A stretch of 64,000 bases of DNA from Escherichia coli (lineage in GTDB: Bacteria > Pseudomonadota > Gammaproteobacteria > Enterobacterales > Enterobacteriaceae): assembly GCF_003334815.1 (NCBI RefSeq), contig NZ_QOWO01000001.1; one strand, 5' to 3'. Position numbers and translations under genes: made by a program. The notes under the pieces were generated by a model. The model searched no databases and had not been told where the DNA came from. It saw nothing but the letters and a program-made list of their open reading frames with translations. Below, one piece after another: positions 47,738-49,925 of the stretch (positions within the stretch are counted from its first letter, which is position 1; each line of letters begins with the position of its first letter).

Positions 47738-47962
47738 TTATGATCGGATGAACGGCAAGATTTCAGCGGAATCCACTACCCTTATGCGGTAGCTGCATAG
47801 CAGGTTTTCACCCAACTTGGCCAGTTCCTGCTGCACCTCTGGCAGCCTATTGCGAGCATGGTCTACCGCTTCCTGTTCAGTGGCGAAACCCTCCATAATT
47901 TCGGTTTCGGTGTAGGTGCCGTGTTCCGGGTCAAAAGCAATGATATATGCGCGATAACTCAT
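47738..47962 (-). CDS. hypothetical acidic 74-aa protein
   Basis: ORF immediately downstream of the primase-like gene; unknown function. Confidence 0.45.
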   Translation of the reverse strand: MSYRAYIIAFDPEHGTYTETEIMEGFATEQEAVDHARNRLPEVQQELAKLGENLLCSYRIRVVDSAEILPFIRS

Positions 47963-47971
47963 AGTATTACC

Positions 47972-49660
47972 TCAAAACTGGTGGTTAGGCCCATCAAAAT
48001 AGCGATGGTCTTGCTGTCCAAAAACTTTCGGTGGCATTAGGTAAAAACGCCCTTTACTTGTTCTACGTGCATCCCTTCCTGTCAGTTTTCGCAGAATGTT
48101 ACCGCACTGCGTTGCCTGGGATTTTGTTGGCCGATCCTGCCCAATAGACAACAGAACATCCGTTGCAGTCATTTCTATATATGCAGCCAGGCGATCACTG
48201 TTCCAATCAAAACGCGCCAATATCATTTCTTCAATCGGGTCAGTTTGCCCGTGCTGTTCGTTCACGACTTCCAGCATGGCTTCTTCATCACGGTCCAGCC
48301 ACCAGCGTTCACCTGCTTCAAACCAGGAAAGAACTTCGGCCCATAATTGTTGTGTGTCTATGCCATGCTCGTAGTTAACGGCAGTTACAGGAATGGTCCA
48401 CCAGCGCACGTTCCCGGTGTCATCCGCCAGGAAGTGTTTCGGGTTCACTGACGCAAAAAACACGGTGCGGCGCTGGTACTTCGATTCAAGCCGGTCATAA
48501 GGGCGGCGCAGGTCATCACGGTCCTGGCTGATAAATGCTTTGAGCTTGGCAATATCCGCCTTGCGAAACGTCGCATCCAATTCGCCTAGCTCAACAAGCC
48601 AGTGACTAATTGCGCTGGCCACGCTGTCTTTATTGCCGGGGTCAATAGTTGCTCCCACCTTAACCAGGTTGCGATTGTCAGGGGGCAGAAGCGCTTTAAA
48701 CCATGCTGTTTTACCCAGTGACTGCTCGCCCTGGAAAACCAGCACGCCTTTGGACCAGAAACCCGCTTCTAAGTAAGCAGCCGCCACGGCAGACAGCAAC
48801 CAACGACGCACCAGCATGGCCAGCAGATCGCGACTGTAGTCATCTGGCGTGCTGATAGTATTCAGCAGGTCTGCAAATCGGCTTCGTCCATCCCATTCAC
48901 GTTGATTGATGAAATCCCTGACAGGATTATAAGTATTGCGCACAGCGATAGTTTTGATATGACCTTCAATATTACTCATTGGTAACCGGTTCAGTGCGGC
49001 GAGGCTTAAAATTTCACTCACAGCGCAGTTATCGCGAGCATCTGAACCGCCACTAACGCCAGGTACTAAAACCTCAACGTCCTTGCTAATCTCATTATAT
49101 TTTGCAGAAATGCTGTAGTTATCTAATAGACGTTCAACATTAGGGCGTGTGTTTAAAGGCTGGCCATTGCTTCCAATATTTGGCCAGGTTGTCATTAATA
49201 CAGGAGCCATATCGTGAATGTCTTTTACAGTTGCTGCGGCGGTTGCTCGTTCTTCTTTGCGCAGCATGCCCACCAGGCTTTCACCGCGTAGGGCGGCGTC
49301 TCTAAGCCTGTCCATGTTCCATTTTTCCGGTTCACGGTCAGTAATGCCTTTAAATAAACGGGCTTCCTTAACTCCAGCCACTGCCAGCTTGTCAGCAATA
49401 GTGCTGATTTGAAGTTGCTTAATATCACCAGCCAGATATACCCGCGCAGACCGGCGACCATCGTCGATAATTCGTAGATTATCTAAATCATCCAGTTGTC
49501 TTGGCCCAAGGTAGACAGGAGGAGTAGTGTCACCGGCAACTTGTTTACCCATTCCTTCTTCCCAGCCCTTGGCATGGCTCCAAGCGTCAGAACCGGCAAA
49601 AATAATTGCTTCCGTAAAAGGGTCTTTAGGTAATAGCTTAACGTTAGGCGCGTTTCTCAT
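47972..49660 (-). CDS. primase/helicase-like replication protein (P-loop NTPase, VirE/D5-like)
   Basis: 562-aa ORF with Walker A GEQSLGKT; position after int-alpA and adjacent to the iteron array is typical of replication initiators in P4-like and PICI-like elements. Confidence 0.7.
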   Translation of the reverse strand: MRNAPNVKLLPKDPFTEAIIFAGSDAWSHAKGWEEGMGKQVAGDTTPPVYLGPRQLDDLDNLRIIDDGRRSARVYLAGDIKQLQISTIADKLAVAGVKEARLFKGITDREPEKWNMDRLRDAALRGESLVGMLRKEERATAAATVKDIHDMAPVLMTTWPNIGSNGQPLNTRPNVERLLDNYSISAKYNEISKDVEVLVPGVSGGSDARDNCAVSEILSLAALNRLPMSNIEGHIKTIAVRNTYNPVRDFINQREWDGRSRFADLLNTISTPDDYSRDLLAMLVRRWLLSAVAAAYLEAGFWSKGVLVFQGEQSLGKTAWFKALLPPDNRNLVKVGATIDPGNKDSVASAISHWLVELGELDATFRKADIAKLKAFISQDRDDLRRPYDRLESKYQRRTVFFASVNPKHFLADDTGNVRWWTIPVTAVNYEHGIDTQQLWAEVLSWFEAGERWWLDRDEEAMLEVVNEQHGQTDPIEEMILARFDWNSDRLAAYIEMTATDVLLSIGQDRPTKSQATQCGNILRKLTGRDARRTSKGRFYLMPPKVFGQQDHRYFDGPNHQF

Positions 49661-49925
49661 ATCGCACCCCGCGTTTTAACTCCAGATACATCGCCCATGA
49701 TTCAGAATCGCTGATGCGAAACGGCACCAGGCTATCAGCCATAGCGGCGTGACGTGAAACAATAGTCCACGGGCGGTTTACACCTTCGCGAATGCATGCT
49801 TGCAACAATAATTGTGCTGCCGCCATACGCTGGGCGGTAAGTTCGCCAACGGTTAACTGGCGCTGTGGGTTACGCAACAGGCTGTTATAGCGACTGATAG
49901 CCTGATTTACGGTTGTTTTCTTCAT
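49644..49925 (-). CDS. hypothetical 93-aa protein
   Basis: ORF between alpA-like gene and primase; overlaps primase start by 17 nt. Confidence 0.5.
   Translation of the reverse strand: MKKTTVNQAISRYNSLLRNPQRQLTVGELTAQRMAAAQLLLQACIREGVNRPWTIVSRHAAMADSLVPFRISDSESWAMYLELKRGVRYEKRA

What the first reader, a model, noticed from the sequence alone, without database searches (positions are those of the whole stretch)
47738..49925. Two small unknown proteins flanking the primase-like gene
A 93-aa protein (overlapping the primase start) and an acidic 74-aa protein (between primase and origin) have no features I recognise. Small accessory genes in this position in satellites often encode helper-phage interference or anti-repressor functions.
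Basis: inference. Interest (0 to 1): 0.3.

Follow-up and report, generated by a model that had tools for sequence, protein, structure and literature searches.

The report
Two orphan genes in satellite replication module
Two small genes flanking the replication gene of a phage satellite inserted at the E. coli fis gene are real and conserved, but match no known protein family, so their roles remain unknown.

Summary
ORF93 (49644-49925, minus strand; basic, four helices) overlaps the start of the VapE gene by 17 nt. ORF74 (47738-47962, minus strand; acidic, beta-beta-alpha-beta fold with a disordered tail) lies between VapE and a terminator followed by an iteron origin.

The element is a known kind: a 9.3-kb "fis PICI", a satellite integrated in the 3' end of fis. 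I found that it carries the cos site of Jilinvirus-like phages. Its replicase core and tape-measure gene are also about 60-66% identical to those phages' genes.

Both ORFs are under purifying selection (dN/dS 0.13-0.23) and are inherited with the replicase and origin as one recombination block. Neither matches Pfam, PHROGs, NCBIfam, PADLOC, PDB sequences, P4 Cnr, P4 epsilon, or any ORF of the probable helper. An exhaustive search of 1.84 billion representative proteins found only nine matching clusters; those traced belong to Enterobacterales genomes or fis islands, apart from one repeat-protein match I judge spurious.

ORF93 is present in every island examined, across three replicase types. 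ORF74 is optional, moves relative to the origin, and keeps a conserved C-terminal peptide, AEI(L/I)PF.

Best reading, at low confidence: both are accessory factors of the satellite's early replication module. The helper-interference or anti-repressor idea is neither shown nor excluded. It stays more plausible for ORF74. Interest is modest.

The parts
49644..49925 (-). ORF93: 93-aa basic (pI 10.6) all-helical protein. It is a core gene of fis-integrating satellites and is translationally coupled to alpA upstream and to the replicase downstream.
   Evidence: ORF and overlap. PGAP CDS. Homologues. AF2 model pLDDT 84.6 with four helices. dN/dS 0.13-0.23. Present in all islands examined.
47738..47962 (-). 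ORF74: 74-aa acidic (pI 4.72) protein with a beta-beta-alpha-beta fold and a disordered C-terminal tail that carries the conserved peptide AEI(L/I)PF. It is the last gene of the early operon.
   Evidence: ORF. PGAP CDS. Homologues. AF2 model pLDDT 84.6. dN/dS 0.18. Absent from some related islands.
47972..49660 (-). Replicase: 562-aa VapE-domain helicase/initiator with a swappable N-terminal domain of about 135 aa and no recognisable primase domain. Its core is 65.6% identical to the C-terminal half of Jilinvirus primase gp10.
49934..50113 (-). alpA-like HTH regulator/excisionase, the first gene of the early operon.
   Evidence: PHROG 66/2790 and TIGR01764. Pfam Phage_AlpA in orthologues.
50408..51643 (-). 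Tyrosine integrase (411 aa from the ATG used by PGAP).
50316..50354 (-). Sigma-70-like promoter candidates upstream of alpA. These are consensus matches only.
47696..47713 (-). Intrinsic-terminator-like hairpin (CCCTGGCGAATGCCGGGG followed by a T-run) that ends the alpA-ORF93-vapE-ORF74 operon.
47366..47668 (.). Origin of replication: two sets of GGTGTCAT iterons (10 exact copies, both orientations) flanking an AT-rich inverted-repeat centre.
   Evidence: This is the layout described for Gram-negative PICI origins in PMC6092414.
47278..47342 (-). cos site: 62 of 65 nt are identical to the joined ends of Jilinvirus vB_EcoM_ECOO78. The phage record has a 13-nt terminal repeat, GGACCAATGCCCC.
42467..42478 (+). 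att identity block (TACGGCATGAAC) at the 3' end of fis. This is the island boundary on the fis side.
   Evidence: The consensus TACGGCATGAACTAA is given in PMC10111431.
51813..51824 (+). Second copy of the att identity block. This is the island boundary on the yhdJ side.

Best explanation
ORF93 and ORF74 are genuine, satellite-specific small proteins of the early operon (alpA-ORF93-vapE-ORF74-terminator) of a fis-integrating PICI. They belong to its replication module, not to its integration or late modules.

Shown: both are coding and under purifying selection. They sit in one operon with the replicase. In two independent comparisons they are inherited together with the replicase and origin as one recombination block. 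They have no detectable relatives outside these islands.

Inferred for ORF93: it is a basic four-helix protein made in step with the replicase through overlapping or abutting reading frames, and it is retained with three different replicase types. It most likely acts as a small adaptor or regulator of replication initiation or of the early programme. This would be the role P4 Cnr plays from the same position, although the two are not homologous.

Inferred for ORF74: it is an optional, fast-diverging acidic protein. Its body changes while its disordered C-terminal peptide AEI(L/I)PF stays fixed. It most likely works by docking that peptide onto a conserved partner. The partner is unknown; candidates are a replisome component, the replicase, or a helper protein. 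It would modulate replication rather than being required for it.
For: Coding status: conserved full-length homologues and dN/dS of 0.13-0.23.

Operon structure: an 8-nt gap, a 17-nt overlap and a 9-nt gap between genes, RBSs in place, and a terminator after ORF74.

Module membership, comparison 1 (window vs Enterobacter island L009): identity is 96-100% across int and alpA. It drops exactly at the alpA|ORF93 junction (49925) to 63-80% through ORF93 and the replicase N-domain. It then falls to 35-55% through the replicase core, ORF74 and ori.

Module membership, comparison 2 (window vs L002): the high-identity block (mostly 80-96%) runs from ORF93 to the end of ori, with lower identity on both sides.

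ORF93 is core. It lies immediately upstream of, and overlaps, the replicase in all islands examined. That includes Serratia islands whose replicase carries a full Toprim_3 primase domain.

ORF74 family: five diverged subtypes (25-45% identity). Four of them retain [AG]EI[LI]PF in a tail that AF2 models as disordered.

Precedent: P4 carries cnr (ORF106) directly upstream of its alpha replicase gene. That Cnr regulates P4 copy number is from my own knowledge; it is not stated in that record.
Against: For EcCICFT073, a pri-ori fragment alone drives plasmid replication (PMC6092414). Accessory proteins are therefore not generally needed by Gram-negative PICI replicons.

ORF74 is absent from Serratia islands that have a 100%-identical ORF98. 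In L013 it lies after the origin, outside the replicase operon.

ORF74 divergence does not track replicase divergence. L009 vs L013 is 44% for the ORF74 family but 36% for VapE.

Both small proteins diverge much faster than their neighbours: 25-32% identity against 57-65%. That pattern also fits an arms-race target.

ORF93 occupies the slot where other Gram-negative PICIs carry Bro-network regulators (PMC10111431). A purely transcriptional role is therefore equally compatible.
Confidence: 0.4

Rival explanations
1. One or both small proteins are aimed at the helper phage. They would block its reproduction or act as a derepressor or anti-repressor, as P4 epsilon does against P2.
For: Both are small orphans restricted to satellites. 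They diverge far faster than flanking genes. ORF74 is acidic, optional, and sits at or near a slot that holds alternative cargo in Serratia islands (SocA_Panacea plus a membrane protein, or 114-aa plus 42-aa genes). P4 keeps epsilon in the same early operon upstream of its replicase.
Against: There is no similarity to P4 epsilon. PADLOC gives no hit.

ORF93 is invariant in presence and position and is translationally coupled to the replicase.

Both lie inside the replicon recombination block.

The probable helper (Jilinvirus-like) has no annotated integrase. A prophage anti-repressor is therefore less obviously useful.
Confidence: 0.3
2. ORF93 is a transcriptional regulator filling the 'Bro zone' between alpA and the replicase. 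It would provide immunity or early-to-late switching for the satellite and would not act on replication.
For: Its position matches the regulatory zone described for Gram-negative PICIs (PMC10111431). It is basic. [quoted passage not shown]
Confidence: 0.2
3. ORF74 is a HicB-like antitoxin or other toxin-antitoxin component that stabilises the island.
For: The AlphaFold DB entry for a 97%-identical Klebsiella protein is named 'HicB family protein'. The beta-beta-alpha-beta topology resembles the HicB N-domain; this resemblance is from my own knowledge.
Confidence: 0.04
4. The ORFs are annotation noise or decaying remnants with no function.
For: A few truncated or frameshifted alleles exist in E. 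coli (P0032, P0038, P0047).
Against: Length, frame and many residues are conserved across genera at 25-90% identity. dN/dS is well below 1, and both have RBSs.
Confidence: 0.02

Closest known systems
fis PICIs, the Gram-negative phage-inducible chromosomal islands integrated in the 3' end of fis (Tommasini, Mageeney & Williams 2023, PMC10111431)
   Same: The att identity block is the same at both ends. Int and AlpA sit at one end, co-oriented with the rest. A replicase is followed by an iteron origin. A late zone carries a captured phage late gene (tape measure). The island is 9.3 kb and has yhdJ on the far side.
   Different: The sections of that paper I read do not describe these two small gene families. 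Here the slot between alpA and the replicase holds a 93-aa non-Bro protein instead of Bro-network genes. The cos site and replicase point to Jilinvirus-like helpers. The sections I read do not mention that lineage, and a library search for Jilinvirus plus satellite found no paper.
P4 Cnr (ORF106, Pfam DUF5375), the copy-number regulator encoded directly upstream of the P4 alpha replicase gene
   Same: It is a small protein encoded immediately upstream of the satellite's replicase, in the same early operon that begins with an AlpA/Vis-type gene and ends in a terminator followed by iterons.
   Different: No sequence relationship. hhalign gives probability 0.2-1%. Pfam DUF5375 does not match ORF93. 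The replicase belongs to a different helicase family, VapE.
P4 epsilon, the derepressor of helper phage P2
   Same: It is a protein of about 95 aa in the early operon of a satellite, upstream of the replicase.
   Different: No similarity to ORF93 or ORF74. The probable helper here has no annotated integrase.
EcCICFT073 pri-rep-ori replicon (Fillol-Salom et al. 2018, PMC6092414)
   Same: AlpA-activated early genes, a replicase followed by an origin with two iteron sets around an AT-rich centre, and carriage of the helper's cos site.
   Different: In EcCICFT073 the pri-ori fragment alone suffices for replication. No counterpart of ORF93 or ORF74 is described in the passages I read. Its helpers are lambda and phi80.
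HicB / UPF0150-type small beta-beta-alpha-beta proteins
   Same: Similar size and similar predicted strand-strand-helix-strand topology. One public entry for a close homologue carries that name.

Membership tests
fis PICI (Gram-negative PICI subfamily) | Integration in the 3' end of fis, with the identity block TACGGCATGAACTAA repeated at both ends | tested here: met
   TACGGCATGAAC occurs at 42467-42478 (the end of fis) and at 51813-51824. The same repeats occur in L002 and L022.
fis PICI (Gram-negative PICI subfamily) | int and alpA at one end, co-oriented with most other genes | tested here: met
fis PICI (Gram-negative PICI subfamily) | Replicase gene followed by an origin with two iteron sets flanking an AT-rich region | tested here: met
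fis PICI (Gram-negative PICI subfamily) | Small size and no complete phage structural or lysis module | tested here: met
   The island is 9.3 kb. The only phage structural gene is a tape measure.
fis PICI (Gram-negative PICI subfamily) | Helper-dependent induction, packaging and transfer | not testable with these tools
   The evidence is indirect only: the island carries a cos site that is 62/65 identical to the joined ends of Jilinvirus ECOO78.
P4 Cnr / DUF5375 | Sequence membership in PF17345 | tested here: not met
   hhalign of the ORF93 profile against P4 ORF106 (probability 1.1%) and against a 31-sequence DUF5375 profile (probability 0.2%). No Pfam hit.
P4 Cnr / DUF5375 | Gene immediately upstream of the satellite replicase in the early operon | tested here: met
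P4 Cnr / DUF5375 | Binds the replicase and limits copy number | not testable with these tools
   Needs genetics or biochemistry.
P4 epsilon (helper derepression protein) | Sequence similarity to epsilon | tested here: not met
   hhalign probability is 0.3% for ORF93 and 0.1% for ORF74.
HicB-type antitoxin | Match to HicB or UPF0150 sequence families or to solved HicB structures | tested here: not met
HicB-type antitoxin | Adjacent HicA-like toxin gene | tested here: not met
   The neighbours are vapE and the terminator plus ori.
Bro-network regulators (the 'Bro zone' of Gram-negative PICIs) | Bro-N or associated domains in the gene between alpA and the replicase | tested here: not met
   No Pfam or PHROG hit for ORF93 or its Serratia homologue.
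Known anti-phage defence proteins (PADLOC) | Match to a PADLOC model | tested here: not met
SSB C-terminal-tip or clamp-binding peptide mimic (ORF74 tail) | Acidic/hydrophobic peptide ending in (I/L)PF, as in E. coli SSB ...DDDIPF-COOH, or QL(S/D)LF for the clamp (from my own knowledge) | tested here: inconclusive
   [AG]EI[LI]PF is conserved in four of five subtypes. It is followed by 2-3 further residues, so the Phe is not C-terminal, and it lacks the Gln of clamp motifs. No binding test is possible with these tools.

The most novel reading that the evidence does not exclude
The satellite's replicase is a cut-down copy of its helper's primase-helicase. It keeps the helicase and origin-binding half, has lost the primase half, and runs on diverged iterons.

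ORF93 and ORF74 would be the satellite-specific parts that let this private replicon work beside, or against, the helper's near-identical one. ORF74 might use its conserved AEI(L/I)PF tail to hook a host or helper replisome component. ORF93 might set which helicase loads at which origin, or poison the helper's gp10.

That would be a new kind of replicon-level parasitism carried out by two new protein families.
Probability: 0.12. Interest if true: 0.6.

Novelty: new member of a known kind. Interest (0 to 1): 0.3.

Why it matters
On their own these are two more hypothetical proteins in a satellite class that has already been catalogued in thousands of genomes.

Their value is as defined targets. 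ORF93 was present in every fis island I examined, so it is probably needed for the life cycle. No such factor is described in the PICI papers I read.

The work also gives the experiment a handle. The island carries the cos site, a replicase core and a tail gene of Jilinvirus-like phages, so a candidate helper can now be tried. Examples are vB_EcoM_ECOO78, ep3 and BASEL Bas97. Knocking out ORF93 or ORF74 in that pairing would show directly whether they serve satellite replication or helper interference.

Tried and rejected
1. P4 Cnr homology for ORF93. A single-sequence hhalign gave a 40-column alignment at 33% identity that looked tempting. It collapsed when a DUF5375 profile was used (probability 0.2%). 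Rejected as homology and kept only as a positional analogy.

2. P4 epsilon. No similarity.

4. 'ORF74 compensates for the missing primase domain.' Rejected. A 65-aa ORF74 homologue exists in Serratia island L013, whose replicase has a full Toprim_3 domain.

5. 'ORF74 co-evolves strictly with the replicase and iterons.' This was suggested by the window vs L009 comparison. It was rejected by the L009 vs L013 comparison (44% against 36%) and by the absence of ORF74 from L014-L016.

6. 'ORF93 goes with the swappable replicase N-domain.' Rejected. Raoultella and Pluralibacter islands have that N-domain without ORF93, and Serratia islands have ORF93 without that N-domain.

7. Contigs of about 9.4 kb as evidence of excised circles. 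Rejected. L002 and L022 carry both att copies and host flanks, and show no terminal overlap.

8. Immunity RNA (C4/isrK) under ORF93. None found.

9. Homologues in the probable helper, in P4, or in other VapE islands, searched by local profile. Only noise.

10. Exhaustive profile search with both families concatenated into one query. Only 9 clusters, none informative beyond the islands themselves. The 911-aa hit P0170 is a repeat protein with a YxETKI-type repeat; I judged it spurious.

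Full report
**Where we are.** The window is E. coli chromosome. 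Between fis (42185-42481) and yhdJ (51907-52797) lies a 9.3-kb island whose genes all run on the minus strand. In order they are: integrase, an AlpA-type regulator, ORF93, a 562-aa VapE-domain protein, ORF74, a terminator, an iteron-rich origin, five unknown ORFs, and a tape-measure gene next to fis. The island is bounded by TACGGCATGAAC at 42467-42478 and 51813-51824. This matches the 'fis PICI' subfamily mapped by Tommasini, Mageeney and Williams (PMC10111431). That paper reports 2642 + 923 islands at the fis 3' end, the identity block TACGGCATGAACTAA, and four zones: Integration, Bro, Replication and Late, with capture of helper late genes. Sixty-five of 5426 complete E. coli genomes carry a match, always on the chromosome.

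**The observation.** Both ORFs exist as described, and RefSeq calls both as hypothetical proteins.
- ORF93 starts 8 nt after the alpA stop, behind a GAGGTGG RBS. It ends 17 nt inside the replicase gene.
- ORF74 starts 9 nt after the replicase stop. A GC-rich hairpin plus T-run follows at 47713-47696.
- The origin has ten exact GGTGTCAT copies in 300 bp, against 1.6 expected in the whole window.
- ORF93 is basic (pI 10.6) and ORF74 is acidic (pI 4.7).
- The middle gene is only loosely 'primase-like'. Pfam finds just the VapE domain. The PHROG primase families align only through their C-terminal halves. The first ~140 residues match nothing in the PDB.

**Are they genes?** Yes. ORF93 has full-length homologues at 71-99% identity in Klebsiella, Enterobacter, Cronobacter, Salmonella, Raoultella and Atlantibacter, with 34 invariant columns. 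ORF74 has homologues at 70-99% identity, with 36 invariant columns. Against two diverged islands, dN/dS is 0.13-0.23 for ORF93 and 0.18 for ORF74. This is similar to the late-zone genes and higher than int, alpA or vapE at 0.03-0.08. A few truncated or frameshifted alleles exist in E. coli.

**What are they like?** Nothing known.
- Pfam, PHROGs, NCBIfam and PADLOC give no hit for either protein or for their distant relatives.
- tblastn against 50,697 phage records gives only noise.
- PDB sequence and profile searches are empty.
- AlphaFold2 gives confident models, both with mean pLDDT 84.6. ORF93 is four helices. ORF74 is strand-strand-helix-strand with a disordered tail from about residue 64.
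- Foldseek on AFDB50 finds a 97%-identical Klebsiella protein named 'HicB family protein' and otherwise uncharacterised small proteins. No other test supports the HicB name.
- I concatenated the two families into one profile to use the single exhaustive search for both. Among 1.84 billion representatives only nine clusters matched. Every public name for members is 'hypothetical protein'.

**Distant relatives and context.**
- The exhaustive search recovered a 98-aa Serratia protein, 24% identical to ORF93 (pairwise E 4e-12). It sits in fis islands in the same place: right after alpA and overlapping (by 4 nt) a 773-780-aa replicase that has a full Toprim_3 primase domain. These islands have no tape measure.
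- One such island (L013) also has a 65-aa ORF74 relative. It lies after the origin rather than before it, and it lacks the tail.
- Sister islands with a 100%-identical ORF98 lack any ORF74 relative.
- In those Serratia islands the slot behind the replicase holds variable cargo: a SocA_Panacea protein plus a membrane protein, or 114-aa plus 42-aa genes.
- ORF93 is therefore core and ORF74 is optional and mobile. Four of the five ORF74 subtypes keep [AG]EI[LI]PF near the C-terminus while the body falls to 25-45% identity.

**Modularity.**
- Compared with an Enterobacter island (L009), nucleotide identity is 96-100% from att through int and alpA. It drops exactly at the alpA|ORF93 junction to 63-80% across ORF93 and the replicase N-domain. 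It then falls to 35-55% across the replicase core, ORF74 and the origin, whose iterons are different.
- Compared with another island (L002), the best-conserved block (mostly 80-96%) runs from ORF93 to the end of the origin.
- Both small genes therefore travel with the replicon, not with the integration or late modules.
- Simple co-evolution stories fail. ORF74 divergence does not track the replicase. ORF93 is linked neither to the swappable N-domain nor to the presence of a primase domain.

**The helper.** This was found on the way.
- The tape measure is 59.7% identical to that of Jilinvirus vB_EcoM_ECOO78.
- The replicase core (residues 159-553) is 65.6% identical to the C-terminal half of that phage's primase gp10.
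- The Serratia islands' last gene is 66.7% identical to the phage's late activator gp06.
- The phage has an iteron cluster, GGTGAC(A/C)A, laid out like the satellites' origins.
- The conserved leader between the satellite origin and the late genes contains, at window 47278-47342, a 62/65 match to the joined ends of the phage genome. The phage record has a 13-nt terminal repeat.
- The island thus carries this phage lineage's cos site, as known PICIs carry their helpers' cos.
- The phage record has no annotated integrase.
- Neither small protein has any relative in this phage.

**Interpretation.** The tested homology hypotheses are negative: Cnr, epsilon, HicB, Bro and PADLOC. What remains is context.
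- For ORF93, universal presence, tight translational coupling to the replicase, and membership of the replicon block favour a role in the satellite's own early programme. That would be a replication-initiation adaptor or regulator, like Cnr by position, or a minimal early regulator in the Bro slot.
- For ORF74, optional presence, rapid change and a fixed disordered peptide suggest a binding modulator with an unknown partner.
- The pri-ori sufficiency shown for EcCICFT073 cautions that neither need be essential for replication.
- The helper-directed reading cannot be excluded, especially for ORF74. The anti-repressor version is weakened by a probable helper with no annotated integrase.
- I put the replication-module-accessory reading at about 0.4, helper-directed at about 0.3, and a purely transcriptional ORF93 at about 0.2.

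**Verdict.** The two proteins are new, narrowly distributed families inside a known kind of element. Interest is modest at 0.3. The most useful output is that a candidate helper and a clean knockout experiment can now be specified.

Noticed in passing
window 47278-47342 (and the homologous leaders in L002, L009, L013, L015): The island carries a cos site that is 62/65 identical to the joined ends of Jilinvirus vB_EcoM_ECOO78, whose record has a 13-nt terminal repeat GGACCAATGCCCC. This points to Jilinvirus-like myoviruses as the helper lineage. No paper in the searchable library links Jilinvirus to satellites.
   Followed up: partly
window 47972-49660 and 42559-44832; L013 14996-15385; L020 2300-2660: The replicase core is 65.6% identical to the C-terminal half of Jilinvirus primase gp10, so the satellite copy lacks the primase part. 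The tape measure is 59.7% identical to the phage's. A Serratia sister island instead carries a Mor-like late activator that is 66.7% identical to phage gp06. The phage origin has GGTGAC(A/C)A iterons laid out like the satellites'.
   Followed up: partly
window 47406-47735, + strand: RefSeq/PGAP annotates a 109-aa 'hypothetical protein' (WP_000052065.1) here. It lies entirely across the origin iterons on the opposite strand, and its sequence is built from the repeats. It is probably a spurious gene call.
   Followed up: no
window 49241-49660 (replicase residues 1-135); L004-L006: The replicase N-terminal domain is a mobile module. It recurs at 66-73% identity fused to a different helicase of about 604 aa in Raoultella and Pluralibacter islands. 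It matches only PHROG 2850 (unknown function) and nothing in the PDB.
   Followed up: partly
window 49925-51825 vs L009: The int-alpA module is 96-100% identical at the nucleotide level between this E. coli island and an Enterobacter island, while the rest is 35-80% identical. The breakpoint falls exactly at the alpA|ORF93 junction, which indicates a recent exchange of the integration module across genera.
   Followed up: partly
window 44854-46971 (ORFs of 294, 104, 54, 105 and 68 aa): The late-zone genes are conserved across E. coli, Enterobacter and Serratia islands (42-83% identity). They have no PHROG, NCBIfam or PADLOC hit and no homologue in the Jilinvirus genome. Their role in hijacking the helper is unknown.
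   Followed up: no
L013 10845-11956; L015 about 5574-6082: In Serratia fis islands the slot between the replicase and the origin holds alternative cargo. It is either a SocA_Panacea-domain protein with a 188-aa membrane protein (toxin-antitoxin or defence-like) or a 114-aa plus 42-aa pair.
   Followed up: no
L011 10266-20282: In one Enterobacter genome the island's replicase gene is cut to 271 aa by the insertion of another element. That element has its own integrase, AlpA, an AAA_25 helicase and a capsid gene, so this is a satellite nested in a satellite.
   Followed up: no
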